Positions 14,137 through 31,910 of a DNA stretch of 64,000 nt are shown here, piece after piece; position 1 is the first letter of the stretch, and every line of letters starts with the position of its first letter. The stretch is from a virus. The notes under the pieces were generated by a model. That model worked only from the letters and a program-made list of their open reading frames with translations, was not told the DNA's origin and did not search any database. The DNA lies in the IMG/VR virus record IMGVR_UViG_3300014656_000018, positions 1 through 64,000 of that record, one strand, 5' to 3'. The position numbers were made by a program, and so were the translations under genes.

Positions 14137-14167
14137 AATAGGAGGGCTTTTTGCCCTCCTATTTTTT
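14137..14167. terminator. Terminator between convergent genes
   Basis: AATAGGAGGGC-TTTTT-GCCCTCCTATT-TTTT. Confidence 0.8.
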
Positions 14168-15863
14168 ACCTGGTATTAGTGGTAGCTCCCGGAGCAAGCA
14201 CATCAGGTCTGGGGTGCTGTATCATGCTGGCAAAGAATAAAAGAGTCAGAGAGTGTAGAGTATCATCTGTTGACCCCAGAGCATGATCGTATGAGGTCAT
14301 TCTCTGCCGCTCATTGTATTCGGAGTAGACACTCAGCAGGTCAGTAGCGAAAGGATCCTGAAATACCTTCCAGAGAGGAAACCGTATCTGCTGCCTCTTA
14401 ATTGTATTGAATACAGCACTAAGCATTGATGAGCGGTTTCCCTTGAATCTGTGCTGAGCAGGATCCCATTCACATATCTTGCCCACAGTACCCACGTACT
14501 GGTACTTTACTATGAGGCGAGGGCCGAACTTCCGTATCAGGGTATCATTTCTTTCCAGACCACCACCATAGTCACAGCCGACGAGCTTTACATTGAATCT
14601 GGAGATAAGCTCACTGATGCGTCGCATCTCGTACTCCAGCTCTGACTCCATTCCCATGAATCTCTGAGCATAGAATACTGTGAATTTATCTCTCCAGTAT
14701 GTTCCTATAGTTATGACAGTATAGCTCTTCTCCCCTCCACCCCAATCAATACCCGCATAAGCGGCTCCGGCTGATCTACACCTCTCGGCCCAGACATTGA
14801 GTGCTGATTCACTCATGTCCAGCATTTTTACCTCTTCCTCATCATTATCATTTCCACAACAGACTCTTATTTCCTCCCTGGTAAGGGGACGGATGCCGGA
14901 ATCATACGCCAGCCCGAGAACCTCATTGAAGAATACCTGACGGGAGAAGGTCTTACTTTTGTGTATGATGTCTCCCCATCCCTCCTCACTCTTGTACACC
15001 CAGGGTACCATCAGCTGAGAGATGTGATATCCCTCTGTAGGATTGGGAACGTTGGGATTGGGGTTCATTGCCACCCAGTGAGCGTCTGGATGGTCCGGAT
15101 ATATAGGGGCGCCACATTTATCACATATAGGTCCTTTCAACCCTATACTTGCCTCACCGAGAACATTCCAGTAAGGAAGGAGCTTCGTACCTCCCAGTAA
15201 CTGATGCCTAAAGCAGGGTAAAACCCACTCGCACTGATTCGTGTCTCTCTGCCAGCTCTGCTCCAGGCTGTTGTCCAAGCTCTTGGGGGTTCCTGAGTAA
15301 GAAAGTATCTTCCAATCAGAGTGAGAGGCACACTCCTCAATAACAGGTACATGGCTAAGCAATATATCTTGAAATTCATCTATCAGGATCATATCAGCCC
15401 TGATCCCACGCACACGATCCGGGTTCTGAAAAGCATATCTAAGAGTTATTTTTGACCAATTCTGAAATTGTTTGGATAGGACGTTTTGAGACAGCTTAGA
15501 ATTCGTATATGCAGCAATCATGGGACAGGTTTCAATGGGCTCTCTCAACCTATCATTAGAAAACTCTCTGGTTTGGGCATTAGTAGGGGATACGTAAAGG
15601 GTACGGAATCTTGGAACGAGGCAGCTATATGCTAAAGCTTTATTACCTAACGTGGTGCTTTTCTCTATTTGCCGTCCACACTTCAGTAATATTTTTCTAC
15701 ATTCTGTATCATATAATCTTCTTAGATATGGTCTTTCTGCAAAAGAGAAAGTAGCCAACGAAGTTCCTGCGTTCACAAGTACTGCTGTCTCTACAAATTC
15801 AGACGCTAGAATCTCAATCTTCCTTTTACCATTCCATCTTTCTTTCTGGGGTACTATAATCAT
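14166..15863 (-). CDS. terL: Terminase large subunit (GpA-like)
   Basis: Walker A variant KCGRQIEKST; Walker B ILIDEFQD; GTP motif; nuclease GIDWGG...DDTLHS. Confidence 0.9.
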   Translation of the reverse strand: MIIVPQKERWNGKRKIEILASEFVETAVLVNAGTSLATFSFAERPYLRRLYDTECRKILLKCGRQIEKSTTLGNKALAYSCLVPRFRTLYVSPTNAQTREFSNDRLREPIETCPMIAAYTNSKLSQNVLSKQFQNWSKITLRYAFQNPDRVRGIRADMILIDEFQDILLSHVPVIEECASHSDWKILSYSGTPKSLDNSLEQSWQRDTNQCEWVLPCFRHQLLGGTKLLPYWNVLGEASIGLKGPICDKCGAPIYPDHPDAHWVAMNPNPNVPNPTEGYHISQLMVPWVYKSEEGWGDIIHKSKTFSRQVFFNEVLGLAYDSGIRPLTREEIRVCCGNDNDEEEVKMLDMSESALNVWAERCRSAGAAYAGIDWGGGEKSYTVITIGTYWRDKFTVFYAQRFMGMESELEYEMRRISELISRFNVKLVGCDYGGGLERNDTLIRKFGPRLIVKYQYVGTVGKICEWDPAQHRFKGNRSSMLSAVFNTIKRQQIRFPLWKVFQDPFATDLLSVYSEYNERQRMTSYDHALGSTDDTLHSLTLLFFASMIQHPRPDVLAPGATTNTR

Positions 15864-16169: not shown

Positions 16170-16269
16170 CAATTTCCAACGCCGATAAAAGATTACTCCT
16201 AAGCTTTTTTTGTACTGTAGAGGATATCTTTAGCATCTCATCCAGATAGCGATAAAAACTAATCCCCAT
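16123..16269 (-). CDS. 48-aa tagged micro-ORF (not in ORF track)
   Basis: MGISFYRYLDEMLKISSTVQKKLRSNLLSALEIAKREYQVSHSYRVSS; ATG overlaps the end of the SNF2 gene; near-exact copy of the YLDEMQKIA tag. Confidence 0.6.
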   Translation of the reverse strand: MGISFYRYLDEMLKISSTVQKKLRSNLLSALEIAKREYQVSHSYRVSS

Positions 16270-17965
16270 ATGAATAACGCCATTCTGGGCCTGTAGCAGT
16301 CCATACTCTCCAACGTCTCAGATACTTCTTGGGGCGAAAACCTGGAGGTGGTTTATACTCCGGACGAGTGCCTGTTTGGAGAGCTGTCCTGAACTGCTCA
16401 TTGAGAACATCCTTCCCGGCTGCTACATCATAGATCCACTGATCTGTAGTGTGTTTCTTCCCGCCACCGAAAAGAGAGCGGAGAAATCCTACCTTCGGCA
16501 TGACAGATTTGTATCTCTTGATAATAACCACTCTGTTTTCTTGTGGGCGGTCTTCCAAACCCTTTGCCCGCACACCTCTGGCCTCTGCCTGCTGAATAAC
16601 CTCCGGATTGAAGTGGCCATCCACCATCTGAACCATGGTAGAATTCTTCAGATCCAAACCTTCTGCTCCTGCTTCGGAGACAAGAAGAACCCTTAGCTTA
16701 CCTTCCAGATAATCAGATACACCTGCCTGCCTGGTCTCCTCCTGTACCTTATTACCACCGACCTCTCTTCCTTTACCTATGAAGACACCAAAGGAGATAC
16801 CTCTCTTTTTCAAACCGGCAGCCAGGACATCGATACCTCCATTGACCAGGTTGGAGTACATGACGACCTGACCATCAGGGGTTGTCTGGAGATGCTCCTG
16901 AGCATCATCCAGAACCTTCTTTATCTTGGGTGTTCTATCTGCAGCCTCTTCAAGGGAAACCGTACCCATGGTAGCAATGGAGTTGGATACCTGTCTGGCT
17001 CTGATTATCTTCCCAAAAACAGTCTGAGCCTCCCTCTTATCCATGGGGATATTATGTTCAATCTTGTACCGGGTGATGAACGGAAGCTGTCCCATGGCGT
17101 AGTTGTATAGGTCCTTCTGCTCATCAGACATCTCTACCAGAACTTCAGACACCTGCTTCTTTGGAAATAATGTAGGATTTGTTCTTTCCAGATCTTCATG
17201 ACTAACAAAATTTACCAGCTTACCAAATCTTTGCTGAATTTCTGATGGACGAATTATAACTGTGATATCCTTCTTACCACCCAGGAAACCCTCTCGGGAT
17301 CCTATAATAGACATATAACGCTTCTCAAACTCTGTTTGGCTGCCAGCAATAGGATATCCGGCAGATAGGGTCATCAACGCTATAATATCCGAGGGTTTGT
17401 TACTGACTACAGATCCTGTCAGACCAATAAAATTGGTAGCCATAGCTCTGGCTAACATCAACGCTTTGAAGTTTACACCTTTTGTATCTCGGGCCTTATG
17501 TACCTCATCTACTATGAGAGTATCTGCCCCGGAAGCCTCCATATATTTATGGGGGGCCTGACGAAATAGCTCATAGCCTACAACAGAGTATGGGATGGTC
17601 TTATCTGCAGTTTGGAAATCTACATGAGAGCCATCAGACACCTCTTGTTTATTCCCAAACACCTGAACAGCATCGTCAGTAAACTTCTTGACACCCTTCT
17701 CCGCAAAGTTGGTACGGAGGCCAGTGGGAACAACTACAAGCGCATTATGAGCAGCGCCAAGCTTTCTTGCGGACTCAAAGCAGAATAAAGCACTAGCAGT
17801 CTTTCCGGAGCCGGTGCTGTGAGCAAGGATGATTTCACCATTATTATCTACGAACTGCTTTATTGCTTCCTGCTGGTGAGGAAGGGGAGAGTATTTCTCC
17901 CTGAGAGCTGCAGATTTTATACTGTAGTCAAATAATTCCTCATGTAGCTCTTCCGGGGATATCAT
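16259..17965 (-). CDS. SNF2/SWI2-family ATPase in the late operon
   Basis: HSTGSGKT, DEVH, LTGS, AGAEGLDL, QQAEARGVR; probable start ATG 17965 (MISPEELHEELFDYSIKSAA). Confidence 0.85.
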   Translation of the reverse strand: MISPEELHEELFDYSIKSAALREKYSPLPHQQEAIKQFVDNNGEIILAHSTGSGKTASALFCFESARKLGAAHNALVVVPTGLRTNFAEKGVKKFTDDAVQVFGNKQEVSDGSHVDFQTADKTIPYSVVGYELFRQAPHKYMEASGADTLIVDEVHKARDTKGVNFKALMLARAMATNFIGLTGSVVSNKPSDIIALMTLSAGYPIAGSQTEFEKRYMSIIGSREGFLGGKKDITVIIRPSEIQQRFGKLVNFVSHEDLERTNPTLFPKKQVSEVLVEMSDEQKDLYNYAMGQLPFITRYKIEHNIPMDKREAQTVFGKIIRARQVSNSIATMGTVSLEEAADRTPKIKKVLDDAQEHLQTTPDGQVVMYSNLVNGGIDVLAAGLKKRGISFGVFIGKGREVGGNKVQEETRQAGVSDYLEGKLRVLLVSEAGAEGLDLKNSTMVQMVDGHFNPEVIQQAEARGVRAKGLEDRPQENRVVIIKRYKSVMPKVGFLRSLFGGGKKHTTDQWIYDVAAGKDVLNEQFRTALQTGTRPEYKPPPGFRPKKYLRRWRVWTATGPEWRYSYGD

Positions 17966-17969
17966 CCAT

Positions 17970-18338
17970 CTACTTCTTTTTCTTGCTGGACATGAGATGG
18001 GCCATAGCCAATCCGACAAGTAAGGTAGATGCGGCTCCTGTAGTACCCCTGGCAAGACCCTTAGCCATACTTCTACCCATCCCCCTCCCTACAAGAGGAT
18101 CCATAATCTTATTCTCCAAACCTCCCTTGAAGACCCCCGTAGCAAAACCAAGTGCTGCAAGGGGAAGAAGTGCCTTGAAGTTACTCTTGAGGGATTTATC
18201 CTCTGCGATCTTACAGAACTCATCAATGTAGGAGGACCAGTCAGGAGAGCAAAGCTTCACCTTATCCTTGGTGTATTTTATCATATCAGCCTTCTTTCTC
18301 ATCTTGGCTGCAGCTCTATCCTCAATCCTCATACTCAT
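17970..18338 (-). CDS. Tagged protein with Gly-zipper-like hydrophobic helices
   Basis: SSYIDEFCKIAE, then LLPLAALGFATGVFKGG...GAASTLLVGLAMA and a KKKK tail. Confidence 0.65.
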   Translation of the reverse strand: MSMRIEDRAAAKMRKKADMIKYTKDKVKLCSPDWSSYIDEFCKIAEDKSLKSNFKALLPLAALGFATGVFKGGLENKIMDPLVGRGMGRSMAKGLARGTTGAASTLLVGLAMAHLMSSKKKK

Positions 18339-19212
18339 TCTCTATCTCCGCCTCCACACGGGCATATCTGTTATCCACATCGATAATAACATGCTTGGGC
18401 GAAAGCTCCTTCATCTTTCCGGAACACATACCTGGTAGGCTATCAACAGACTGGAGCTTATCCTTGCTCTTCTTCATAAAGATAGCCTCAAACTGGCTAA
18501 TAACTTCAGCCAGCTGGGTATCCCCACTATTTAGAAGCTTGCTGGCCTCGAACATAATAACAGCCCACTCTTTTGCCATTTTAGCTGTATTAAGGTCATT
18601 ACGCATGGTATGTGTCTGCATAAAGCGATAGAAGGCCTCATTCTGCATTGATTTCAACATATCATTGGCATCAACCCCAGCCACAGGGAACCCTAGCCTC
18701 CAAGTAGCAAGAGCGGTACCTTCATCATATAGGCCCTTCAGCTCGGACCCACCATCATACATACCGAGAAAGATATCCCATTCCTGAGAGGATAGATAAT
18801 CTCTATTCCAGAAGAAGAGCTGATAATACTCTACAGACTTCTCTGAATATCTCTTTCCAGTTCTGTCCCCCACAAGTCTTACTATTTCATCTACACCGGT
18901 TCCAGACAATATAAGTGCCTCAAGTAGAGGTCTTACCTTGCCGTTAGATAGGGCCATGGTGGCCTCATCTACATCATTATCCCGGTAGAACAGAGGGTAC
19001 AGGTTCTGCTTTCTCAGCCACCTATCTGTGACCCGATGGTGTACACCCGGTCTAAATGCTCTAGTAGGTATATTGATTCTGTTACGTACGCCACTCAAAT
19101 AGGATGAGGACATCCTTGGGTATCCAAGACTCTCCATGAGCTGATCTATACGTGTATTAGTGTAGTTACACACTATTAAATACTTCACATACAGCTCAGC
19201 AGGAGTCCTCAT
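18322..19212 (-). CDS. Hypothetical helical protein (possible terminase small subunit)
   Basis: 296 aa, coupled to both neighbours; function inferred from position only. Confidence 0.5.
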   Translation of the reverse strand: MRTPAELYVKYLIVCNYTNTRIDQLMESLGYPRMSSSYLSGVRNRINIPTRAFRPGVHHRVTDRWLRKQNLYPLFYRDNDVDEATMALSNGKVRPLLEALILSGTGVDEIVRLVGDRTGKRYSEKSVEYYQLFFWNRDYLSSQEWDIFLGMYDGGSELKGLYDEGTALATWRLGFPVAGVDANDMLKSMQNEAFYRFMQTHTMRNDLNTAKMAKEWAVIMFEASKLLNSGDTQLAEVISQFEAIFMKKSKDKLQSVDSLPGMCSGKMKELSPKHVIIDVDNRYARVEAEIENEYED

Positions 19213-21503: not shown

Positions 21504-22631
21504 CTACTCCAGAAACACCTTGCCGGATAGAATACTTTTAAGTGCCGCTATTTGTGCGGGAGGAGCTGGGGATGGATAATGAGAATGCAGAGCCAGCCAC
21601 TTGACAAGCTGTACCCCTAGAACTCCTGGCTCAGACGCACTCTCACTGCCAAGCTGTATCTTATCCGATGCCTGCACAACCCGAAATTTACAAACATCCT
21701 TCATTATATTTTTTGCTTCCCTGGTAGTGTTCAGCTGAGCACACTCCTTTATACAATTATCTTCCGGAGCTGCAGGTACCTCAGCTCCGACAGATAGGGA
21801 GTAGCCCTTGAGTACATGCTGGGAGAAGCTGCTCTCGACTCTATGAAAGCAGTTGCCTGCAACCTCACGCTCACTTTGACCCTCTACTCTGGAGAACTCA
21901 TTACCCTCTTTATCTAGCCTGAAAATAATGCGCTTTCCTAGTGGAACTCCACCAGGATTGCTGGGCTCGATAATAATTTCCATATAGACAGGAAAAGAGA
22001 ATGCACCGACACCCATATCTCCCTGAGCACCATCCCTCAAGGCTGACTCATCTGACAACTTCCTACCAAACCTGACAAATATAGAGGGGCCGGAGTCATC
22101 GGCTTTCTCTTTGGCACGCAGCTCAAAGAGTGCTTTGGGATCATCCAGGTTGACAGACTCTACCTTCCATTCCAGCTCCCCTCCTATAGCATCCATTCTG
22201 TAGTTCTGGCAGATGTCTCTTATGAGATTTTCCAGAGGTATATACATGCGTTGGGATATAGGCGTAGCACCTATCTGGACTACACCTCCCCTACGTAAAA
22301 AAAGGAAGTTACCGTCCCTGGTGGAAGCCATTATGTCCCCGGGATTCAAGAATGGCCTATTTCCACGATAGACATCCTCTCCCGGAGTCATGATAAAACC
22401 AAGCACAAGGACATTTCCATCACTAGTGTGAGCTAGAATAGCTTGAGAACCAACCTCTGGAACTAGGGTCAACCCCTCTCCCTGGGGATTGTTACAGTAA
22501 GGGGAAGCAAAAGGGACATTCTCTATCTTCTTATGGGAAAATTCCGAATTTACAGTAACCTCGTACTTACGGGTATCTACATCCACTACCCGTGCAAGCT
22601 CTACTACAGGTCTTATCATCAGTATGCCCAT
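21504..22631 (-). CDS. Baseplate central spike (gpV/gp45-like)
   Basis: OB-fold-like N-terminus with VPEVGSQ; C-terminal HSH metal-tip motif. Confidence 0.7.
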   Translation of the reverse strand: MGILMIRPVVELARVVDVDTRKYEVTVNSEFSHKKIENVPFASPYCNNPQGEGLTLVPEVGSQAILAHTSDGNVLVLGFIMTPGEDVYRGNRPFLNPGDIMASTRDGNFLFLRRGGVVQIGATPISQRMYIPLENLIRDICQNYRMDAIGGELEWKVESVNLDDPKALFELRAKEKADDSGPSIFVRFGRKLSDESALRDGAQGDMGVGAFSFPVYMEIIIEPSNPGGVPLGKRIIFRLDKEGNEFSRVEGQSEREVAGNCFHRVESSFSQHVLKGYSLSVGAEVPAAPEDNCIKECAQLNTTREAKNIMKDVCKFRVVQASDKIQLGSESASEPGVLGVQLVKWLALHSHYPSPAPPAQIAALKSILSGKVFLE

Positions 22632-25600
22632 GGCTTATCGGTAGGGGATTTAGCAAACTCCTTACCAAAAGCAATTCCGGGAATGGGTGAGGATCCATGA
22701 AGGTCTGAAATACTTCCTTCCATGGCTGCCTCCTGAACAGTCTGCTTCAGTTTCTTATAGTTCATCTTTGCCAACCAGTCTTCCTGCATGTCCAGAGCAA
22801 GAGTATCCACTCCTCTTAGAACGGGAGCATGTACAATCTTCTTTGCAGAAGGATTCTCCCTATTCCACGCATCCATCTTGTTGGTCGGCGCATAATCTCC
22901 AGGGAGAATATTATTATTATCCCCAGAGTTCACTATCTTGGTCAGGTTGGTGAGAGCCCTCACCACAACCTCTGCATTTCTCCTCTTGATATGCTCTCCG
23001 GAGAAGATCTTATCAACCTCATCAGTAAGATAGTTCTGTGTCCTGTTGATGTTGGTAAGCTCAAGAAGCTCTCTGGGGTGAATAGGACCCGTGGATATCG
23101 CATCCCCCTTGGATATACTACTACCCTTACCAACCTTCAAAGACAGCTGAGAGGGCACATAATGGCGCTCCCCACCAACGAATACACCCCAACCCCCAGC
23201 AGGATCAGATTCTATTTTCTCAATCTTCCCAGAGGTTGTAGCCAGAGTGGCAGCATTGGGAAGCTCTTCCGGAATTTTCATTAACTCAACAAAACGCTCA
23301 AAATCCCCGGTAACGCCACCCCCTGCTGCCGCAGAACCTCCCGTATGGAAAACACGCATAGATAGCTGAGTAGTCCTTTCCCCTAAGGATTGAGACGCTA
23401 TGGCTCCAACATTTGTACCAATATCAGGAGGTCTGCCATCCTCCGATAGACCAAAGCAGTGCTGGCAGATACCGTCCCTATCCTGACACCTCAATGGAGA
23501 TCTGACTACAATCTTACCCACCTTGTTGTTCAGTAGGCTTCCTTGAATCTCTGGAGTAATAAGAGTGCCTGCAGGAAGGGTCTTATCTCTGATCCTTACA
23601 GGAGAAATCAGATATCTATCCAGAGCATTCCTGCTGGATGAGTCCAAAGATATTCCCTTTGTAGTATTACAATCAGGAACCGTGATCAGCTGATTCATGG
23701 TGCTGTTCATCAGCTGTTTGGAGAGATAACCAGGCTTTCTTACCTGCTGAACCTTCTCGGTTATACCTTTCCTTGCCCCAATTGCTCCTACCCAATATCC
23801 GGTAGTGTCTATCCCCTCACTATAGGAGCTTCGAATGGGAATAGGCACAACTCTACCACTGGAGTCAGCCATAAGCATGGGGGCCCATAGTAGCTGCTCC
23901 ATCTGGCTGGCATTTGGCTTTATTCCAGACTGATGCATGTCAAAAATATGATTTCCAGACGCTTTCAGTATGGGAGCATATATCTTACGCAGCTGATCCG
24001 TAGCTTCAGAGTAAACACGGACAATCCTGGCATCCTTGTTTACTTTGGTACCTGATCCTGCCTCTATAGCAGCTACCTTTATATCAGCTTCTCTAAGGAT
24101 CTTATCTCTAGGCTCTTTAGGGATAGCGAAATCTCTCAGTCTGAAGGAGAAGCCCTGACTTGCTGAGCTAAAACCAAACTGCTGCATCTTGTTAGCAAAG
24201 CTGCCAAAATCCTTGGGATACTTCTTTGATACCATACTAAACAGGGATGCTGTAGCCTTCTTGTTGAGTACCAATCTTTCATCTGTAAGATGACCACCCC
24301 CACGGAGGGGTGCTGGTAGGGCTTCATCCAGAAGTACCCTTCCGGGGGTAGTTCTCTTACCATTAAAGGATATAAAATCTGTCATATCTACAGTGCCAGT
24401 CTTGAGATCATTCCTGACCTTGTCATAGCTGGTGTAGCTACCCTTCGTTTTACCCTCACCCCATTTGGTAGCCAGATATAGGCCAAGAAGAGAGTCCAAG
24501 GATGGTTGATACATTGTATCACCACTTGCGGGACTGAATAGGTTACGGGTAGGCATCATAGCATAGGCTTCACGTACTGCTTCAGGGGATACAGGAACAT
24601 ACACACTCATGGCGTCCCCATCAAAATCCGCAGAATAGGCCCCGGTAACCAGAGGATGTATCTTTATAGCTGTACCCTCTACAAGGAGAGGCTTGAATGC
24701 CATGACTGCAAATTTGTGTAGAGCTGGATCTCTTTTGAACAGAACCGGCCTGTCCTTTACTGCAACCTCTAAAGCCTTCTCTGCCAGAGGGGAGTGCTCC
24801 TTCATTACCTCCTGAGCCTCAAGGGGAGTATAACCCTGTCGCACCAGCTCTCTTACCACGAAGGGCTTGAACAGCTCCATTGCAGCTTTTCTGGGAAGAC
24901 CTATGTTATCAAGCTCCATCTTGGGATCGGGTACGATAATAGATCTCATGGTGAGATCCTGCCTTCTCTTCACGACCTTACCCTGAAAGAATCCATGCTT
25001 GGTTGGGGACAGTATCCCCAGAATTCCCTTTGAATCCTGCTTACCACCCAGACCCATGATGGCCTTGATCCCATCATACATTGAAGAGCGGAGAGAGCCT
25101 TTCTCCTCATCAGGGAGACCTTTGGGGAAACCTTTCAGCTGGTGATTCAGAAGAGCAAAGTCTCTATAGAGACCATTCATCTCATCAAAGTTCAGATTAC
25201 CATCCGGAAGAGGTGTTATCGGTCTCATTATAGGAGGAAGAACGGGAAGATTATGGAGTATATATGCTTCCTCTGGAGATATACCCTCTTTATCCAAGGC
25301 TCGCAGGTATCTGATCTTCTTGTTCAGCCTGTCCAGATTTGCTCCTCTAGCTGTCTTGATCTTCTCCTCGGACTCTGCCAGCTCCTTCTTGACATCTATA
25401 GCCTTGAGCATTTCAGCAATAACAATACCCCCGGTCTTACCATTGACATGCTGCTCACCCTCGGCAATCTGAGTCACCTGAGCAATGGTAAGCCCCAAAA
25501 GGCTTCTGATGGCCGGCTCAAATAGAGGATTGGGTATAGGCTCGGCCAGTGATATATGACTCCAGAAATTTCCAGAAATACCACCGGTAGTGATGGGATC

Positions 25601-28600
25601 GAACAGGCCACCGGCCTCCTCTTTGAGGTCCTTGCCTCTCAATATCTTGGTAGGATTCCTGATCTCTCCGTTCGATCTCTCCAAAATCTCTTCATCTGTG
25701 AGGGGGATGAGAGTCAGCTCATTTCCTTTCCGATGAATGTCAATACCCATAGCATTGAGATAGGAGACAAACTTGCTATAAACAAAGCTGGTGGTGGGTG
25801 GTGGAAGGGGCTCACCTGTTTGAATAGCTGCCCAGACATCCTCATTCTTGCTCGTCTTATAGTTCTGCATATCCCTGATATTGAATCGTGCACCCATGGA
25901 GAGCAGGGAGTATAGGCCAAGCTCCCCGATGGATTGAGCACCCTCAGATCCTCCTCTCTTGGGAATCATGTTTATATCGTAGGAACCTCTGGATCTCACA
26001 GAGAGCTTCTTTATTGCCTGATGATGGAGCTTCAGTATATACTGGCTTCCGGTAAATATCTCCCCCAAAGACCTGCCGGTATTGGGATCAAAAAGCTCCT
26101 CAGTATCGCTAAGACCTGCTTTCTCAAGCTCCTCCATGACCTTTTTGGTGTAATCTATCTTTCTCTCATGAGGCTTAACCCATATCTCTTTTAGGCCTTC
26201 TTCAGTTTTGACGGTTCTATAATGTCCCTTTACTTGTACCGTCTTCTCCTGAGTTGAAGCAAAATTGGATACCAGAAAGGGCTTACCGTTCTTTATGGCA
26301 ACTTTACTGAGGGCTGTTTCCAGGAGCTGGCCCGGATTTACACGTCCGGCAACACCAGTCGGGTTGAGCAATATATGGACAGGGTTTCCACTCTTATCAT
26401 GAGGCATCTCATGATCCGGAATTATGGCTGTCACAACACCTTTATTCCCATGTCTGCCAGATAATTTATCTCCAATTTGTATGGGTTCTTCCGTACGAAT
26501 CAAAACACTGATGTTTTTTCCGTGTTGATGGACATCAACCACGGTTCCTGAGAATGGATAATCCCATTTCTCTGACATGTCTCTATAGGGCTTGACTAGA
26601 GACTTGCTGAGTCGAGATAGGTTTACTGCCTCTCCTGTGGAAACCTCCTTCCTCATCACCGCAGAAATATAATTATCCGTATTAAGGGTCTGACCCACCC
26701 TGATAATACCTGAGTCATCAAGCTTCTCTGCCTGATCTCTGGTAATCCTGTCTGGGAAGTAGGACTGAAACTTCTTCTTGTTTGTAACTACATTCCTATC
26801 AACAAACACACCTTTCTGATATAAATGCTGGCTTGTAAGCTCCTCAGCAGCAGTTTCTGAGATGACAATTCCGTCCTCAAAATTCAGACCATGATAGGGC
26901 AAGTATGCAACTCTAATATTCTTACCCAATGACAGTGTACCTTCCCTGCTATAGTTGGTATCTGCAATAATCTGTCCGGACTTTACCTTGTCACCGACCT
27001 TGACCAGAGGGGTTGACCACAAACCTGTACGGGAGTCATTGAGGGGAAAGTTATCATATATCTGATATTCCCTAACCCCAGACTTTCCCTTGACCTTTAT
27101 GAAGTCCTTCCCGATAGAGTAAACCTCACCATCCTCCATGGCAGCAGTAGATGTTAGGTTACCAAAGACATCTTCATATGAGCGGCCATCCTCTGTAGCA
27201 GTCTGCACATGTGGCTGCTCCCTATGCTTCAGGGAAATTGCCTGCTCTATGTGCCTGGCAGCCATTTCAACCCTGTTTCCTGAATCTGAGGATAGAAAAG
27301 GAACCAGATTGACTGTTGGACTGAAAAGCATCTTTGCAGAGGGAAGGATGTATTCTACATCACTAAAGGGTTTCAGCTGAAGCTCATTGGCCTTACCACT
27401 GACCTTGATTCTGTCAGCAACAGGTACAGGCTTCTTTCCCCGCCACTCTACCTGATCCGGCATTGCTACCACTGCATCGTACAGTTGTAGTGCAGACTTA
27501 TCCTCCTTCTTACCAGTCCTTGCATTGATAACAGGGATGATGGGAGTGGTTCCCTTCTTACTTACACCAAGTGCTAGATGAAGAGAGACCCCGGACTTGG
27601 CACTCTCCGGGGTATGTAGAGGATCCAGAAAACCCAGGTGGGAGTTATCTACCATCTTGGCTTCCGAGGTAATAGCGTGTTCCGAAGAGATACCTCCACC
27701 CTCAGAGGAAAGAATAGTAGTTCTTAATTTTCCGGAGATCATCTCCATGGGATTAATCTGGGGGGACATTGAAGATAAAGATACTGAGGAGAACCAGGAG
27801 CGAATAGGCTTATTGAATATATCCGAGGTTATTATCTCCCGGATGTCTGTCTTCCTATCTATGTTGTTGTTTAGCTGCCTGTTGATAGCTCTGCTGGAGT
27901 TCAGCAGCCTCTCCTTTAGGTAGTCCTCTATTCCCCACAGCTCCTTGAATGGTAGAGCATCTCTGGGATCTGGCTCAGCCTGACCTCTGGAGATTGCCAG
28001 AAGCTTTGAGGCACCTGACAGAAGAGCTGGACCGGAAACGGTGGTAAAGGGTGTGCCCAGATTTATCTTGTTTACATCAGGAAGCATCTGGGTATCCCCA
28101 AATGTCTCCCGTACAAAGCTGCCAAGATCTACATCTGCAGTAGACCTATCTCCCATTGCAGCCTTATAAAACTTCTGTAGGCTCTTATTGTTGTCAACTT
28201 TGCTATTAGCCTGAAAAATCACATCTCCCCAGGCCTTCTTCATTTCACTATCTGATACCCCCATGGCAGATAGGATAGGTTTCAAGGGAACATTGGAGGT
28301 CCCATACTTCAGGATATAACTTCTGCTCTCCGGATCGAATCCTATGCTAAACCCAAGCCCACGGGACAGGTTCCACTGAGACTCCAACTGGCCGTTGGCT
28401 TTGATCCGGGCATATATTCCGGATTTTAATCTCCATAGATTATCAACACTTCTCTCATTCCCTTCAACTATGAAGGAGTAGCGTTGGGTAATCTTTGGAA
28501 GATTAAGAATGCGTATAGTCTTGCTATCTACTATCTTTCCGGTCTGCTTATCCTTCAGCCTGAACGTTCCATTAACCGGAATCGTCCAGGATGAGCCGGC

Positions 28601-28774
28601 CATCTTGGCCTTTCTCTGTGAACGGAAATCCTCCGGATCAAGATTGTCATCTACCTCAATCTTGTCCAGAGTCAGGGTGTGGGAGCGACCTTCTATAGGA
28701 AAGAAAGTCTTGGCCTGCTCCACCACCCCTTCTTTGAGAGCGGCCATTGCTCTCTGAGGGTTGAGCAAATGCAT
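22619..28774 (-). CDS. rpoBC: Single-chain fused beta-beta' DNA-directed RNA polymerase
   Basis: Beta motifs HTPES, GLNFEDGI, GDKLSGRHGNKGV, GAQSIGEL; beta' motifs KRDPALH, SADFDGD, PGYLSKQL, RSPLRC, ASQSLGERTTQLSMRVFHTGG; probable start ATG 28774. Confidence 0.95.
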   Translation of the reverse strand: MHLLNPQRAMAALKEGVVEQAKTFFPIEGRSHTLTLDKIEVDDNLDPEDFRSQRKAKMAGSSWTIPVNGTFRLKDKQTGKIVDSKTIRILNLPKITQRYSFIVEGNERSVDNLWRLKSGIYARIKANGQLESQWNLSRGLGFSIGFDPESRSYILKYGTSNVPLKPILSAMGVSDSEMKKAWGDVIFQANSKVDNNKSLQKFYKAAMGDRSTADVDLGSFVRETFGDTQMLPDVNKINLGTPFTTVSGPALLSGASKLLAISRGQAEPDPRDALPFKELWGIEDYLKERLLNSSRAINRQLNNNIDRKTDIREIITSDIFNKPIRSWFSSVSLSSMSPQINPMEMISGKLRTTILSSEGGGISSEHAITSEAKMVDNSHLGFLDPLHTPESAKSGVSLHLALGVSKKGTTPIIPVINARTGKKEDKSALQLYDAVVAMPDQVEWRGKKPVPVADRIKVSGKANELQLKPFSDVEYILPSAKMLFSPTVNLVPFLSSDSGNRVEMAARHIEQAISLKHREQPHVQTATEDGRSYEDVFGNLTSTAAMEDGEVYSIGKDFIKVKGKSGVREYQIYDNFPLNDSRTGLWSTPLVKVGDKVKSGQIIADTNYSREGTLSLGKNIRVAYLPYHGLNFEDGIVISETAAEELTSQHLYQKGVFVDRNVVTNKKKFQSYFPDRITRDQAEKLDDSGIIRVGQTLNTDNYISAVMRKEVSTGEAVNLSRLSKSLVKPYRDMSEKWDYPFSGTVVDVHQHGKNISVLIRTEEPIQIGDKLSGRHGNKGVVTAIIPDHEMPHDKSGNPVHILLNPTGVAGRVNPGQLLETALSKVAIKNGKPFLVSNFASTQEKTVQVKGHYRTVKTEEGLKEIWVKPHERKIDYTKKVMEELEKAGLSDTEELFDPNTGRSLGEIFTGSQYILKLHHQAIKKLSVRSRGSYDINMIPKRGGSEGAQSIGELGLYSLLSMGARFNIRDMQNYKTSKNEDVWAAIQTGEPLPPPTTSFVYSKFVSYLNAMGIDIHRKGNELTLIPLTDEEILERSNGEIRNPTKILRGKDLKEEAGGLFDPITTGGISGNFWSHISLAEPIPNPLFEPAIRSLLGLTIAQVTQIAEGEQHVNGKTGGIVIAEMLKAIDVKKELAESEEKIKTARGANLDRLNKKIRYLRALDKEGISPEEAYILHNLPVLPPIMRPITPLPDGNLNFDEMNGLYRDFALLNHQLKGFPKGLPDEEKGSLRSSMYDGIKAIMGLGGKQDSKGILGILSPTKHGFFQGKVVKRRQDLTMRSIIVPDPKMELDNIGLPRKAAMELFKPFVVRELVRQGYTPLEAQEVMKEHSPLAEKALEVAVKDRPVLFKRDPALHKFAVMAFKPLLVEGTAIKIHPLVTGAYSADFDGDAMSVYVPVSPEAVREAYAMMPTRNLFSPASGDTMYQPSLDSLLGLYLATKWGEGKTKGSYTSYDKVRNDLKTGTVDMTDFISFNGKRTTPGRVLLDEALPAPLRGGGHLTDERLVLNKKATASLFSMVSKKYPKDFGSFANKMQQFGFSSASQGFSFRLRDFAIPKEPRDKILREADIKVAAIEAGSGTKVNKDARIVRVYSEATDQLRKIYAPILKASGNHIFDMHQSGIKPNASQMEQLLWAPMLMADSSGRVVPIPIRSSYSEGIDTTGYWVGAIGARKGITEKVQQVRKPGYLSKQLMNSTMNQLITVPDCNTTKGISLDSSSRNALDRYLISPVRIRDKTLPAGTLITPEIQGSLLNNKVGKIVVRSPLRCQDRDGICQHCFGLSEDGRPPDIGTNVGAIASQSLGERTTQLSMRVFHTGGSAAAGGGVTGDFERFVELMKIPEELPNAATLATTSGKIEKIESDPAGGWGVFVGGERHYVPSQLSLKVGKGSSISKGDAISTGPIHPRELLELTNINRTQNYLTDEVDKIFSGEHIKRRNAEVVVRALTNLTKIVNSGDNNNILPGDYAPTNKMDAWNRENPSAKKIVHAPVLRGVDTLALDMQEDWLAKMNYKKLKQTVQEAAMEGSISDLHGSSPIPGIAFGKEFAKSPTDKPWAY

Positions 28775-28780
28775 GATGTC

Positions 28781-28811
28781 AAAATACGATAGTTCAGGCC
28801 AGCAGGTCAAC
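28781..28811 (-). promoter_or_regulatory. Putative sigma70-like promoter GTTGACC-N18-TATTTT, possibly giving a leaderless RNAP mRNA
   Basis: The -10 hexamer ends 6 nt before ATG 28774; no SD sequence. Confidence 0.5.
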
Positions 28812-29101: not shown

Positions 29102-29159
29102 GTATTGAGAAGGGCAAACGCGCCAAAAAAGGAAAAGATAAAGCGAATGCCCATTTTTT

Positions 29160-29235
29160 ACTCCCAGGTAGGAATGGTCTTCCTAAGGGATCTTATAAGT
29201 CTCTAAAACCGGTTCAATTCCGGATGGGAGTACCA
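29160..29235 (+). tRNA. tRNA-Ile(UAU)
   Basis: 76-nt cloverleaf: acceptor ACTCCCA/TGGGAGT, D stem TAGG/CCTA, anticodon loop CTTATAA (TAT at 29194-29196), T loop TTCAATT, discriminator A, encoded CCA. Confidence 0.85.
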
Positions 29236-29716: not shown

Positions 29717-29985
29717 GCAGCCCGGTTCTCCAAAATGGGCACAATCTACCAAGGTGTGCCTTATGTGGAGAGCCCTTTGAGCCAGATAATGAAGATGAGA
29801 TAATTCTTGTAATTCATCCAATGTTACTGGAGACCAGCAAGAAGTCTGGGAGAGTAAGATTGGTTGATTATGAGTTCAATGTACAAAGAAACGGTCTGGA
29901 CGGTTTGGGGAAGTTCTATTGGCATTATGAATGTGCGGTAGAACAGTTACTGGACCCATCTGTAATAGGACACTTCTATGACTAG
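29677..29985 (+). CDS. Small Zn-finger protein
   Basis: CALC...WHYEC treble-clef-like pattern. Confidence 0.55.
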   Translation: MSSASDDFAHLPISSPVLQNGHNLPRCALCGEPFEPDNEDEIILVIHPMLLETSKKSGRVRLVDYEFNVQRNGLDGLGKFYWHYECAVEQLLDPSVIGHFYD

Positions 29986-31910
29986 ACCTGTTGAGTAGCG
30001 GGTCCCCTCATAGGAGCACGTATCTCAGGAGGAGGAAGATTAGCTGAGCCGGATCCTTGCTGATAGAGCATCTGTGTCACCATCTGGTATACTTCGGGAT
30101 GCTCCAGCCTTAGCCTGGCCAGCTCCTGGTATTTCAGGTTGTTGTCCAGCTGGTTGATATATCCAACAACCCGCTGAGCCATCATCTGAATATCAAGACC
30201 GCCTCCTCCGGTAACTGTTTGAGAGTTAAGAGGCGACTGAGCAAAGCCTGTAGGCTGCTGCTCAGCGGGAGGCTGTCCACCCGGTGGGGGAGGCATTCCT
30301 TCTCCACCGGGTGGCTGACCTTCCATACCGGGCATTCCCTGAGAGGCCTGCATCATACTCTGTGCCTTGGCCTGATATTTTTGCTGAATAAGCATAGCTT
30401 CACCGGCAGCCTCTGCTCCCTGCACCTGCTGGCTCTTCTGGCGGTCAAACTTTGCTTTACTTTCCGCCTCTATCTGCTTCCTCTCATTCTGATAGTCATA
30501 GTCTCTGGTAGTCAGTAGAGTTTGCTCTGATATCTTATCTGCCATGTTGAGCTGCAGATCAAAAGCAGCTCTTTGAAGATCATCAGCCATCTTGAATGGA
30601 GTAAGGCCGGTCTTTATCGCCTTCCAGGACATCCATGTACTTACTTTTTTAACTATGAATCTGAGCAGACCCAGCATATCGCTACGAGTCCCCAGAAATT
30701 CATTCTCCATCATACGCATGGATACTGATGAACCACTATATGAAAGTCCCCCAAAGACGAGCTCCTGGGGGGTTCCACAGCCTGCAACTATATGTTCTGA
30801 GAGTAATCTGATTTCATCAGACATCATAAGGGCCTTGGCATCACCCCCAATTACCTGATGACCAACGGGAAGAGGCATTATAGGAAAGTAAGAGGCATCC
30901 TGCTTCCAGTTATTTACTTCCTCCTTTACCCTCTCCTCCCAACCACTAATCTGTACTGTGCTATATGGGTCTGAGGTTGTAGAGCTGGGCTGAGGAAACA
31001 AGATTCTCAGAGGAACGATATGCTCATGAGCAATCATCTCCTGAGCTTTCTGCAGCTGTTGTAGGAGATAGATATGCTTCAGCACGGGAAGCATTCTGGG
31101 GATACCCAGACCCATGTTCAGGTGAGAGATCGATGCTCTTTTATAGTGAAATATATTATCCGGAGATATTACCAAGGATTTATTCAGACGTAGAGACTCG
31201 ACAAAGGAGTGTGGTATTGTCTCCAGAATATCTTTCTTCTCCAGGATGATGTTGTTCTTCACCGCTAATGGTATCTCATAGTAGTAAATAGCTTCCTGAG
31301 TTATGGGATTGAAATCTATATTTATTGCTTCCGGATCCCATCTGATTAAACGTATGCCCCTGGAGGATTGTAGAGGCTTATCCTCTACAATTGCAGGATT
31401 ATTGGAGCTACATTTTTTACAGGCAAGCCAGTACTGGAAGGATCTGAACTTGTATGACGCCTTACCAATATCTATTGATGCACCACAGCTACGACATTTC
31501 AGATTCTTCCGGAAGGGGTAGTATAGGGACACATAACAGTTTCCATAGCACTCCTTATCCAGATTCGCCTCGATAAGAAATGGACGGATACGTAGGTGGT
31601 CCTCCATGAACTCCCGCCATCTCTCCTTGAGGGCGCTATCCTCCGTCTCATACGTAACTGCTGTGACCGGATACATAGCTGTCTTGGATACAACTGAGCT
31701 TACCAGTGGGCTGGTCAGTGTATAATACCTACAGAAGCGGAACAGGTGCTTGATGGTGGAGGGTAGATAGGTTGTGGCTATATCAAAGAACGGGGAAGGG
31801 TAGCTAATAACAGATGAGCTGGACCCTTGTGTTCCAGAGCTGCTACCGGAGTATCCTGCAGTTCTGAATCCACCACCAGGACCCGCACCACTTCCGGAGA
31901 AAGGAGGCAA
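29982..31910 (-). CDS. Portal protein with a Zn-ribbon insert
   Basis: YGNCYVS, NIFHYK...GLGIP, GTPQELVFGGLSYSG portal-like motifs; CRSC...CKKC insert; Q/P/G-rich tail. Confidence 0.75.
   Translation of the reverse strand: MPPFSGSGAGPGGGFRTAGYSGSSSGTQGSSSSVISYPSPFFDIATTYLPSTIKHLFRFCRYYTLTSPLVSSVVSKTAMYPVTAVTYETEDSALKERWREFMEDHLRIRPFLIEANLDKECYGNCYVSLYYPFRKNLKCRSCGASIDIGKASYKFRSFQYWLACKKCSSNNPAIVEDKPLQSSRGIRLIRWDPEAINIDFNPITQEAIYYYEIPLAVKNNIILEKKDILETIPHSFVESLRLNKSLVISPDNIFHYKRASISHLNMGLGIPRMLPVLKHIYLLQQLQKAQEMIAHEHIVPLRILFPQPSSTTSDPYSTVQISGWEERVKEEVNNWKQDASYFPIMPLPVGHQVIGGDAKALMMSDEIRLLSEHIVAGCGTPQELVFGGLSYSGSSVSMRMMENEFLGTRSDMLGLLRFIVKKVSTWMSWKAIKTGLTPFKMADDLQRAAFDLQLNMADKISEQTLLTTRDYDYQNERKQIEAESKAKFDRQKSQQVQGAEAAGEAMLIQQKYQAKAQSMMQASQGMPGMEGQPPGGEGMPPPPGGQPPAEQQPTGFAQSPLNSQTVTGGGGLDIQMMAQRVVGYINQLDNNLKYQELARLRLEHPEVYQMVTQMLYQQGSGSANLPPPEIRAPMRGPATQQV

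What the first reader, a model, noticed from the sequence alone, without database searches (positions are those of the whole stretch)
22619..28774. Streamlined single-polypeptide beta-beta' RNA polymerase in a virion operon
Seen: one ~2050-aa ORF carries beta motifs then beta' motifs, joined near 25700-25750 (YLNAMGIDI...LTDEEILERSNGEI). The beta' N-terminal Zn-binding domain is deleted (GLFDPITTGGISGNFWSHISL has no Cys), while the C-terminal Zn site remains. No alpha, omega or sigma gene is visible in the window. Its stop overlaps the start of the baseplate spike gene. Established: E. coli beta plus beta' is about 2750 aa; fusions occur in Helicobacter and Wolbachia; phages with cellular-like multisubunit RNAPs are known from metagenomes, so the class is not wholly new. 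Inference: it is made late, packaged in the virion and injected, and may work without alpha or sigma.
Basis: partly seen in the sequence, partly recalled or inferred. Interest (0 to 1): 0.85.

Follow-up and report, generated by a model that had tools for sequence, protein, structure and literature searches.

The report
Single-chain phage RNA polymerase with own sigma
An uncultured large phage makes the two big subunits of a bacterial-type RNA polymerase as one 2051-residue protein. Its gene lies among the head genes, and the phage also has its own sigma factor, so it probably injects its own transcription machine; the enzyme belongs to a large, barely described phage family.

Summary
Window 22619-28774 (- strand) is one ORF of 2051 aa. 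It runs collinearly through a whole bacterial beta and then a whole beta', joined by a tight turn at residues ~1028-1036.

Checked features:
- The catalytic motifs and the second Zn site are kept.
- The beta' N-terminal Zn-binding domain is cleanly deleted.
- The stop codon overlaps the start of a gp5/baseplate-V-like spike gene.

It is not a one-off. A 200-aa probe across the junction hits 439 protein clusters (50% identity) at E<=1e-30. The clade overlaps the published 'mReC' phages and includes two kinds of isolate, Salmonella phage Arash and Vibrio phages D69/D148/D181. In Arash the homologue is the most abundant protein by spectra in purified virions.

The gene sits in a conserved order: portal, RNAP, spike, 647-aa protein, TerL. 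Complete relatives have only this one RNAP and no alpha or omega homologue.

The suggestion that it may work without sigma is not supported. The genome encodes a sigma70-family factor outside the window (79.5-80.4 kb). That gene occurs in all four genomes of the clade that I checked, and its Arash homologue is in virions. The sigma-docking clamp helices and flap tip are retained.

Verdict: a new variant of a known kind (phage-encoded, probably virion-borne, multisubunit-type RNAP). Interesting and testable, but not categorically new.

The parts
22619..28774 (-). Single-chain beta-beta' RNA polymerase gene, 2051 aa from ATG 28774; stop TGA at 22619-22621
   Evidence: ORF list and translation. 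Pfam Rpb2 then Rpb1 domains. The start matches the family consensus. An identical protein is on record on a 128-kb contig.
25721..28774 (-). beta module (residues 13-1030 of the printed ORF). It lacks E. coli inserts bi4 and bi9, and beta residues 8-24.
   Evidence: Alignment with Salmonella beta. Comparison with 20 bacterial beta sequences.
27707..27796 (-). Counterpart of the rifampicin-binding cluster I. E. coli Q513/D516/H526/S531 correspond to S347/P350/G360/T365.
   Evidence: Family alignment. The H526->G/S and S531->T changes are family-wide. Drug insensitivity is an inference from the known E. coli resistance positions.
26603..26647 (-). beta flap-tip helix, the docking site of sigma region 4 in bacteria
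   Evidence: Alignment. A helix is predicted at residues ~726-734 in the AF2 model.
26438..26458 (-). GRHGNKG motif of the beta double-psi beta-barrel (active-site lysines)
   Evidence: Conserved in 11 of the 12 family rows shown
25691..25753 (-). Fusion junction. The last beta strand of beta and the first strand of beta' are joined by a short turn (..GIDIHRKGNE|LTLIPL..).
   Evidence: Alignment. AF2 models it as a beta-hairpin with block pLDDT ~89. The same junction is spanned in one stretch in the best 150 of 439 cluster representatives.
25556..25615 (-). Site of the deleted beta' Zn-binding domain (E. coli beta' 64-95). It reads ..GLFDPITTGGISGNFW.. with no Cys.
   Evidence: The segment is absent from all 12 phage rows and present in at least 80% of the 32 bacterial rows.
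25046..25198 (-). beta' clamp helices (coiled-coil), the main docking site of sigma region 2
   Evidence: Alignment to E. coli beta' 262-309. Two helices in blocks of pLDDT ~87-93 in the AF2 model, at residues 1210-1226 and 1234-1252.
24614..24634 (-). Mg-binding catalytic motif SADFDGD (bacterial NADFDGD)
23456..23671 (-). Second Zn site: C1714, C1775, C1782, C1785 (E. coli C814/C888/C895/C898)
21504..22631 (-). Downstream gene, overlapping the RNAP stop and so probably translationally coupled: gp5/baseplate-V-like central spike candidate (375 aa)
   Evidence: Overlap read from the sequence. Atlas leads to Phage_base_V clusters. Conserved directly after the RNAP in G002, G003 and L006.
29982..31910 (-). 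Portal protein, the next gene upstream on the same strand after a 1.2-kb gap
   Evidence: tblastn to Arash gp204 portal, E 1e-74. Lies upstream of the RNAP in all eight related loci.
16259..18055 (-). SNF2-family helicase, a possible RNAP accessory factor (RapA-like). Homologue of Arash gp217.
   Evidence: Pfam SNF2-rel_dom and Helicase_C. PHROG helicase. tblastn E 9e-46 to gp217, which follows the beta'C gene in Arash and is found in virions.
14166..15863 (-). Large terminase. It ends the conserved block portal-RNAP-spike-647aa-TerL.
   Evidence: PHROG 675, E 3e-53. Synteny.

Best explanation
The gene encodes the complete catalytic core of a bacterial-type RNA polymerase as one chain, with the C-terminal strand of beta tied to the N-terminal strand of beta' by a short turn.

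Proposed mechanism:
1. The gene is expressed with the head and tail genes. Its stop overlaps the spike gene's start, which suggests translational coupling.
2. The enzyme pairs with a phage-encoded sigma70-family factor (277 aa, regions 2-3-4, encoded at 79.5-80.4 kb of the same genome). Docking would use the retained clamp helices and flap tip.
3. Enzyme and sigma are packed into the capsid and enter the cell with the DNA.
4. There they transcribe early phage genes without host RNAP and probably without sensitivity to rifampicin.
5. Complete relatives carry no second RNAP, so newly made enzyme probably also serves later gene classes.
6. The covalent tether would replace the alpha-dimer assembly platform.
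7. Loss of the Zn-binding domain remodels the RNA-exit and upstream-DNA side of the clamp.

Shown here: the architecture and motifs; the existence of the sigma gene and its presence in the relatives checked; synteny; single copy; family size; separation from bacterial clades.

Inferred: packaging (from the Arash proteome and gene position), pairing with sigma, independence from alpha, drug insensitivity, and the consequences of losing the Zn-binding domain.
For: Architecture:
- Pfam domains in order.
- Collinear alignment with Salmonella beta and beta'.
- All best PDB sequence and fold matches are bacterial beta'/beta.
- The junction is modelled as a hairpin with block pLDDT ~89.

Sigma:
- The own-genome ORF L027:15535-16449 (G000 79,535-80,449) is homologous to sigma-like ORFs of G002/G003.
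- It is homologous to Arash gp10, E 2e-19.
- Pfam Sigma70_r3, E 8e-5.
- A family profile hits SigA/SigB/RpoS across regions 2-4, E 4e-12.
- The AF2 model (pLDDT 86) finds only sigma factors in the PDB at probability 1.0.
- Its homologues share longest-contig lengths (128,379; 169,782; 108,145; 109,973 bp) with fused RNAPs, which suggests the same contigs.
- G001 has a clear Sigma70 r2+r4 ORF.

Virion association:
- In Arash, gp206 has the most spectra, gp216 ranks fifth, and gp10 sigma and gp217 helicase are also detected (PMC10585845).
- The order portal-RNAP-spike-647aa-TerL is conserved at ~35% identity.

Single RNAP, no alpha or omega:
- One beta barrel and one beta' barrel per genome.
- No alpha, and no omega above the cut-off, in three complete relatives.

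Other:
- Rifampicin-pocket substitutions.
- The clade is separated from 32 bacteria of 8 phyla by a supported long branch.
Against: - No proteome or expression data exist for this phage or for any fully fused member. The Arash authors themselves note that abundant intracellular enzymes can contaminate virion preparations, and 116 of 272 annotated features were 'virion' proteins there.
- Sigma-core binding is inferred from retained surfaces, not modelled. The complex exceeds the fold tool's size limit.
- The sigma could instead redirect host RNAP.
- No enriched promoter motif was found.
- Host alpha/omega could still be required; the Helicobacter fusion enzyme keeps alpha.
- The record is only ~53% complete, so gene absences rest on the relatives.
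- The tree is unrooted, used LG+G4 with a short search, lacks Campylobacterota and archaeal outgroups, and carries a long-branch warning.
Confidence: 0.55

Rival explanations
1. Non-virion enzyme. The RNAP is made during infection and transcribes middle and late genes only. Host RNAP, perhaps redirected by the phage sigma, reads the early genes. The Arash virion signal is carry-over of an abundant protein.
For: The Arash paper raises this possibility itself, and lists many metabolic enzymes among its 116 'virion' proteins. No packaging signal or propeptide is visible at the RNAP N-terminus, which starts right at the conserved beta sequence.
Against: gp206 has the highest spectral count of all proteins, above the major capsid protein. 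The gene is embedded between portal and spike/TerL in every relative examined. That is the position of late-expressed virion genes and is awkward for an enzyme needed before late genes. There is no second RNAP for a hand-over.
Confidence: 0.2
2. Host-assisted core. The single chain still needs host alpha dimer and/or omega to fold or work, as the cellular Helicobacter beta-beta' fusion does. It is therefore not a self-sufficient minimal polymerase.
For: Outside the Zn-binding domain and the termini, every segment present in at least 80% of the sampled bacterial beta and beta' sequences is retained, so the alpha and omega contact regions may be intact. Cellular fusions keep alpha (established knowledge).
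Against: No alpha homologue, and no omega above the cut-off, in three complete genomes. A virion enzyme ejected through the tail would have to find host alpha after entry. phiKZ/AR9-type phage RNAPs work without alpha or omega (reviews PMC7598289, PMC13282480). The beta' C-terminal tail (E. coli 1367-1385) is absent.
Confidence: 0.25
3. One reading: a sigma-independent enzyme that recognises promoters by itself or through an unrelated phage factor, as the AR9 and phiKZ enzymes do.
For: No sigma in the window. Loss of the Zn-binding domain alters a surface near the sigma 3-4 path. phiKZ-type enzymes use sigma-unrelated factors.
Against: A sigma70-family gene is present in the genome and in all four genomes of the clade that I checked. 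The Arash homologue is virion-associated. Clamp helices and flap tip are retained.
Confidence: 0.1
4. A decayed or moonlighting protein: a catalytically dead internal head or ejection protein derived from an RNAP.
For: Very abundant in Arash virions. Some relatives have variant Mg motifs such as GGDIDGD or GSDHDGD.
Against: The three aspartates, GRHGNKG, the second Zn site and the aligned counterparts of the bridge helix and trigger loop are kept here, and the motifs checked are kept across the family rows examined. Conservation extends over the full length in hundreds of clusters.
Confidence: 0.03

Closest known systems
mReC clade (multimeric-RNAP-encoding Caudovirales; Weinheimer & Aylward 2020, PMC7481178)
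   Same: Uncultured tailed phages, mostly 25-200 kb contigs, with bacterial-like beta/beta' on a deep branch separate from cells. A 179,636-bp contig from the same metagenome as relative G001 (179,282 bp; RNAP 37% identical to the query; probably the same contig) is in their table. My beta' tree also gives a separate, long-branched phage clade.
   Different: The paper tabulates beta and beta' as separate proteins. It does not mention the fusion, the loss of the Zn-binding domain, a sigma factor, gene context or virion association. I could not reconcile their listed lengths (1371 + 1010 aa) with the ORFs I see in G001 (1999 + 599 aa). Their capsid marker PF07068 is not detected in this window's MCP, and TerL matches PF03237 only weakly.
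Salmonella phage Arash gp206/gp216 (+ gp10 sigma, gp217 helicase), and Vibrio phages D69/D148/D181
   Same: Closest cultured relatives, at ~30-33% identity over 71-94% of the query. Same beta-beta' junction, same loss of the Zn-binding domain, the RNAP gene downstream of the portal, and SNF2 helicase, sigma, TerL and MCP homologues. Arash has virion mass-spectrometry evidence.
   Different: Their beta' is split at about residue 1485-1625 into beta-beta'N (~1525 aa) and beta'C (~606 aa). In Arash several opposite-strand genes lie between the two pieces; in Vibrio phages D181/D148 a homing endonuclease is annotated under the match. The window's enzyme is one uninterrupted chain. The split pair is sister to the fused group in the tree.
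phiKZ / AR9-type virion and non-virion multisubunit RNAPs of jumbo phages
   Same: Phage-encoded two-barrel RNAPs related to cellular beta/beta', with no alpha or omega. One form is virion-packaged for early transcription. An SNF2 helicase is linked to the RNAP genes (PMC7824862).
   Different: Those enzymes are fragmented into 4-5 polypeptides, come as two paralogous sets, and are highly divergent. They use non-sigma70 specificity subunits (gp68, gp226), and those phages have no sigma gene. Here there is one chain, one set, a 27-32% identical full-length match to bacterial subunits, and a sigma70-family partner.
Cellular beta-beta' fusions (Helicobacter, Wolbachia)
   Same: beta and beta' are joined head to tail in one polypeptide. 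This shows that the natural proximity of the beta C-terminus and beta' N-terminus tolerates a tether.
   Different: Those are ordinary members of their bacterial clades with alpha, omega and the Zn-binding domain. The phage enzyme is no more than 32% identical to any of the best 80 bacterial beta' found among 185,579 species genomes, and none of those is a Campylobacterota or Wolbachia sequence. The fusion therefore looks independent. This was not tested with those sequences in the tree.
crAss-like gp66, YonO and P23-45 TMP-fused RNAPs (single-chain two-barrel enzymes); N4 vRNAP
   Same: Single large polypeptides. gp66, the P23-45 enzyme and N4 vRNAP are packed in virions and ejected to start early transcription.
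   Different: gp66, YonO and the P23-45 enzyme retain little beyond the barrels and are not detected by beta/beta' profiles. N4 vRNAP is T7-like and unrelated. The window's protein keeps essentially the whole bacterial core, with lobes, flap, clamp, and the aligned counterparts of the bridge helix and trigger loop.

Membership tests
Bacterial-type multisubunit RNAP core (beta + beta') | Two double-psi beta-barrels with GRHGNKG (beta) and NADFDGD (beta') active-site motifs | tested here: met
   Pfam Rpb2_6 E 1.8e-55 and Rpb1_2 E 5.5e-27. Motifs GRHGNKG and SADFDGD.
Bacterial-type multisubunit RNAP core (beta + beta') | Full-length collinearity with beta and beta' (lobes, flap, clamp, bridge helix, trigger loop) | tested here: met
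   Alignment with Salmonella and 20-32 other bacterial sequences. Only short universal segments are missing. PDB hits are all bacterial beta'/beta.
Bacterial-type multisubunit RNAP core (beta + beta') | beta' N-terminal Zn-binding domain (C70, C72, C85, C88) | tested here: not met
   A 32-column deletion in all 12 phage rows; the segment is present in at least 80% of the 32 bacterial rows.
Bacterial-type multisubunit RNAP core (beta + beta') | Second beta' Zn site (C814, C888, C895, C898) | tested here: met
   C1714, C1775, C1782, C1785, conserved in the family.
Bacterial-type multisubunit RNAP core (beta + beta') | Assembly on an alpha dimer, with omega | tested here: inconclusive
   No PF01000 hit, and no PF01192 hit above the cut-off, in G000-G003. 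Use of host alpha/omega cannot be tested with these tools.
Bacterial-type multisubunit RNAP core (beta + beta') | Initiation through a sigma70-family factor that docks on the clamp helices and flap tip | tested here: inconclusive
   The sigma gene is present in the genome and in the relatives checked, and the docking elements are retained. Physical pairing was not modelled or measured.
mReC phage RNAP clade | beta/beta' form a clade with other Caudovirales sequences, apart from all cellular lineages | tested here: met
   The phage rows form one side of a branch with SH-aLRT 100, ~1.4 substitutions per site from 32 bacteria of 8 phyla. Relative G001 probably corresponds to a contig in the mReC table. 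Caveats: unrooted, LG+G4, no archaea or eukaryotes.
mReC phage RNAP clade | Shared capsid (PF07068) and terminase (PF03237) types reported for the clade | tested here: not met
   The MCP (3482-4705) has no Pfam hit. TerL matches PF03237 at E 2.4e-4, below the cut-off, and matches GpA_ATPase better. Only 8 of the 97 mReC contigs had a detected MCP, so this feature is weak.
phiKZ/AR9-type jumbo-phage RNAPs | beta and beta' each split into two or more polypeptides; two paralogous sets (virion and non-virion); no sigma70 homologue | tested here: not met
   One chain and one set per genome. A sigma70-family gene is present.
Virion-packaged RNAP (functional class) | Protein present in purified virions and active on entry | not testable with these tools
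   Only indirect evidence: the Arash virion proteome and position in the head module.
Cellular rpoBC fusions (Helicobacter/Wolbachia type) | Nested within the host's own bacterial rpoB/rpoC clade | tested here: not met
   No more than 32% identical to any bacterial beta' among the best 80 of 542 confirmed hits. Outside every sampled phylum in the tree. Campylobacterota were not sampled directly.

The most novel reading that the evidence does not exclude
This clade carries a self-sufficient, minimal bacterial-type transcription machine: one beta-beta' chain plus one sigma70-like factor, with no alpha, omega or Zn-binding domain. The machine is packed in the capsid, threaded through the tail with the genome, and is the only polymerase that reads the phage genome from first to last gene. 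The phage would then be fully independent of host RNAP and of drugs and host factors that target it. The fusion would be an adaptation that guarantees 1:1 reassembly after ejection.
Probability: 0.3. Interest if true: 0.8.

Novelty: new variant of a known kind. Interest (0 to 1): 0.6.

Why it matters
If the single chain plus its small sigma is active alone, it would be the simplest known enzyme that still has the full bacterial RNAP architecture. It would be one gene for the core instead of four or five subunits. That makes it a convenient object for structural work, and for asking what alpha, omega and the Zn-binding domain actually contribute.

It would also add a third design to the known virion RNAPs, which are the T7-like N4 enzyme and the fragmented phiKZ-type or highly reduced crAss/P23-45 enzymes. 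This third design would be a near-complete cellular-type holoenzyme carried in the capsid.

The family is large: at least 439 clusters at 50% identity. It is widespread in metagenomes and has cultured members (Arash, Vibrio phages D69/D148/D181), so the predictions are directly testable.

For phage biology it implies host-RNAP-independent, probably rifampicin-insensitive, gene expression in a major group of ~180-200-kb phages. The 2020-2026 reviews I read (PMC7598289, PMC7824862, PMC13282480) do not cover this group.

Tried and rejected
- Near-identical DNA in 50,697 phage records: no match.
- PHROGs and Pfam on the neighbouring genes: mostly empty. The spike call therefore rests on Atlas leads only. 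The conserved 647-aa protein stays unknown.
- Direct Pfam searches of the own record for Sigma70_r2/r4: no hit. The sigma was found only through homology to relatives' ORFs, then confirmed by profile and fold.
- Promoters. Sigma70-like consensus hits around the gene are at chance level (14 found against 13.1 expected). No 8-mer recurs meaningfully in the 21 intergenic regions. I therefore make no claim about promoter classes.
- ARAGORN finds no tRNA in the window.
- The tree with the site-heterogeneous model on 75 rows did not finish in two 300-s runs. I fell back to 44 rows with LG+G4 and a short search, which is more prone to long-branch artefacts.
- The scan of 185,579 species genomes gave only genuine bacterial rpoC at 26-32% identity. 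There was no binned phage copy, so no host inference.
- I could not reconcile the beta/beta' lengths listed for the mReC contig with the ORFs in G001.
- Considered and rejected:
  - A recent capture of host rpoBC. The distances to the sampled bacterial rows are similarly large (~26-32% identity), and the clade has its own deletion.
  - Membership of the phiKZ-type or crAss-type families. The architecture tests failed.


Full report

Yes. The minus strand of window 22619-28810 is open for 2063 codons. The ATG at 28774 reproduces the N-terminal consensus of the homologues.

Pfam finds beta domains (Rpb2_3, Rpb2_6; residues 349-945; E 1.8e-55). These are followed in the same frame by beta' domains (Rpb1_1, _2, _3, _5; residues 1137-1830).

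An alignment of 25 family members with Salmonella beta+beta' shows:
- The end of beta (..GIDIHRKGNE) abuts beta' residues ~19-30 (LTLIPLTDEE) at residues ~1028-1036 (nt ~25691-25753).
- The beta' Zn-binding domain is absent.
- The second Zn site is present (C1714/C1775/C1782/C1785).
- The active-site motifs are GRHGNKG and SADFDGD.

An AlphaFold2 model of residues 680-1330, built on 70 sequences, has mean pLDDT 74.7. The blocks covering the junction and the beta' clamp score 83-97. The junction is drawn as a two-strand hairpin. The clamp coiled-coil and a flap-tip helix are also modelled. Its best PDB fold matches are bacterial beta' and beta chains.

The stop codon TGA (22619-22621) overlaps the next ORF. 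That ORF can start at ATG 22631 or at the ATG of TGATG at 22619.

**2. What surrounds it?**

The record is a linear virus contig of 98,118 bp, estimated ~53% complete.

By tblastn against Salmonella phage Arash:
- The gene upstream (29982-31910) is the portal (gp204, E 1e-74).
- 16259-18055 is an SNF2 helicase (gp217).
- 14166-15863 is TerL.
- 3482-4705 is the major capsid protein (gp226).

The order portal, RNAP, 375-aa protein, 647-aa protein, TerL recurs in relatives that are only ~35% identical (G002, G003, L006). The gene is therefore in the head-morphogenesis block.

The 375-aa downstream protein has no Pfam or PHROG hit. The protein Atlas links it to baseplate-V/gp5 clusters: feature score 0.94, and TM 0.5-0.57 to clusters carrying PF04717. 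The 'baseplate spike' label is a reasonable lead but is not proven.

**3. How common is it, and who are its relatives?**

No phage record matches at the DNA level. At the protein level more than 120 metagenomic clusters (90% identity) are 41-64% identical. Most of these are 2040-2115 aa. About a third are 2.4-2.9 kaa and carry LAGLIDADG, Hom_end or intein domains.

A 200-aa probe centred on the junction finds 439 representatives of 50%-identity clusters at E<=1e-30. All of the best 150 span the junction in one stretch. The beta-beta' fusion is therefore a family trait, not an assembly accident.

The nearest cultured phages are Vibrio phages D69/D148/D181 and Salmonella phage Arash, at ~30-33% identity. 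There the same fusion exists, but beta' is split near residue 1485-1625 into beta-beta'N and beta'C.

A 179,636-bp contig from the same metagenome as relative G001 (179,282 bp; probably the same contig) is listed in the supplementary table of the mReC paper. The family therefore overlaps that published clade. The paper lists beta and beta' as separate proteins. It does not mention fusion, the Zn-binding domain, sigma or virions. I could not reconcile its listed lengths with the ORFs I see.

**4. Is it a captured bacterial operon?**

A scan of one genome from each of 185,579 species returned only genuine bacterial rpoC, at 26-32% identity and from many phyla.

In a beta' tree of 44 rows (LG+G4, short search):
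- The 12 phage rows form one side of a branch with SH-aLRT 100. The branch lies about 1.4 substitutions per site from 32 bacteria of eight phyla.
- The Bacillota, Pseudomonadota, Acidobacteriota and Actinomycetota rows each form one group.
- The split-type pair (Arash, D69) is sister to the fused group.

Caveats: the tree is unrooted, and a mixture-model run did not finish. The program warns that long branches meet, and Campylobacterota and archaea were not included.

**5. How 'streamlined' is it?**

I compared the phage rows with 32 bacterial beta' and 20 bacterial beta sequences. The only segments present in at least 80% of bacteria and missing from the phage rows are:
- beta' 64-95 (the Zn-binding domain), beta' 7-15, and the beta' C-terminal tail;
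- beta 8-24 and beta 1038-1049;
- a few 5-residue gaps.

The rest of the size difference from E. coli is the absence of lineage-specific inserts (bi4, bi9, beta' SI3). The smallest bacterial subunits in my sample are 1126 + 1122 aa. The phage enzyme is therefore about 9% shorter than a minimal bacterial core, not the 25% implied by comparison with E. coli.

**6. Sigma, alpha, omega**

Pfam sigma models find nothing in the own record. They do hit a 352-aa ORF in G001 (regions 2 and 4, above the cut-off) and, weakly, 353-aa ORFs in G002 and G003.

The G002/G003 ORFs have a 30% identical homologue in the own genome at 79,535-80,449 (- strand), outside the window. Evidence that this ORF is a sigma factor:
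- Pfam Sigma70_r3, E 8e-5.
- PDB sigma factors by phmmer, E 3e-5.
- About 100 metagenomic homologues.
- A family profile aligns to SigA, SigB and RpoS across regions 2-4, E 4e-12.
- An AF2 model (pLDDT 86) retrieves only sigma70-family chains from the PDB, at probability 1.0.
- It is homologous to Arash gp10 (E 2e-19). The Arash paper reports gp10 in virions with 100% coverage.

The two sigma-docking elements of the core, the clamp helices and the flap tip, are retained. The suggestion that the enzyme may work without sigma is therefore not supported.

No alpha homologue was found in G000-G003, and no omega above the cut-off. Independence from alpha is plausible but untested, because host alpha/omega could be used.

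Each genome has exactly one beta barrel and one beta' barrel, in one frame. There is no second, non-virion polymerase.

**7. Virion association**

The only experimental evidence is from Arash (PMC10585845). gp206 (beta-beta'N) has the highest spectral count of any protein in the virion preparation (3516). gp216 (beta'C) ranks fifth. The sigma gp10 and the helicase gp217 are also present. The authors caution that abundant intracellular enzymes might carry over.

Combined with the head-module position conserved across the clade, I put packaging at about two in three.

**8. Likely mechanism**

Shown:
- A complete, apparently active bacterial-type core in one chain.
- A sigma70-family gene in this genome and in the four other genomes checked.
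- One RNAP per genome.
- Late-module gene position, with the stop overlapping the spike gene's start.

Inferred:
- The chain and its sigma are made late, packed in the head and ejected with the DNA.
- They then start phage transcription independently of host RNAP. The same enzyme, newly made, continues the programme.
- The tether replaces alpha-mediated assembly and guarantees 1:1 stoichiometry after ejection.
- Loss of the Zn-binding domain opens the RNA-exit/upstream-DNA face. In bacteria that face contacts spacer DNA, nascent RNA and termination or antitermination factors (established knowledge of E. coli RNAP).
- Rifampicin insensitivity is predicted. The positions matching E. coli Q513, D516, H526 and S531 are S, P, G and T. 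The H526 and S531 changes are family-wide.

**9. Novelty**

Reviews up to mid-2026 describe fragmented, sigma-less jumbo-phage RNAPs. They state that phages with sigma factors lack RNAPs. None that I could search describes a single-chain bacterial-type phage RNAP with its own sigma.

The clade's existence (mReC) and the Arash proteome are published. This is therefore a new variant of a known kind, not a new category. This window adds one more, fully fused, member.

The scan's other first-stage notes on this genome also flagged a sigma in the tail operon (e1-5979325), which my tests confirm.

Noticed in passing
outside the window: G000 79,535-80,449 (-) = L027:15535-16449: Sigma70-family gene (called product 277 aa) embedded among tail and baseplate genes. 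It lies next to a 733-aa protein with LigD phosphoesterase and ATP-dependent ligase domains (80,361-82,562). The model shows an N-terminal helix plus four short strands (residues 3-36) ahead of sigma region 2, of unknown role.
   Followed up: yes
window 29159-29232 (+), in the 670-nt gap upstream of the RNAP gene: Weak tRNA-like signal in Rfam (tRNA-Sec model, 24.9 bits against a gathering score of 47; E 0.02). ARAGORN calls no tRNA anywhere in the window. Another first-stage note calls this a tRNA-Ile(UAU).
   Followed up: partly
L004, L005, L008, L009, L001 and Arash (L002/L031); query residues ~415, ~580 and ~1485-1625: RNAP genes of relatives are interrupted at recurrent positions by 0.5-3.7-kb inserts. 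About a third of the family proteins are 2.4-4.7 kaa long, and those with precomputed Pfam domains carry LAGLIDADG, Hom_end or intein domains. The RNAP gene is a hotspot for selfish elements. The 1485-1625 break lies near the site where cyanobacterial beta' is split.
   Followed up: partly
L003, L006, L007 (relatives G002, G003); P0022: The Mg-binding motif varies within the clade (GGDIDGD, GSDHDGD instead of NADFDGD), and P0022 has GRSAQKG instead of GRHGNKG. The three aspartates are kept.
   Followed up: no
window 19209-21152 (-): A 647-aa protein conserved after the spike-like gene in G002, G003 and L006. It has no family hit, and the Atlas's predicted structure is very low-confidence (pLDDT 0.35). 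It could be an internal or ejection protein.
   Followed up: partly
window 16259-18055 (-): An SNF2-family helicase travels with the RNAP. In Arash it directly follows the beta'C gene and is abundant in virions. Iyer et al. noted the same RNAP-SNF2 linkage in phiKZ-type phages and suggested a RapA-like role.
   Followed up: partly
window 22622-22630 (C-terminal end of the RNAP): The very last residue (Tyr), preceded by a Pro a few residues upstream, is nearly invariant across 70 family members, although the preceding tail is variable. It could be a docking or packaging signal.
   Followed up: no
window 33595-37788 (-): A 1397-aa ORF upstream of the portal cluster with no significant Pfam match. 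Function unknown.
   Followed up: no
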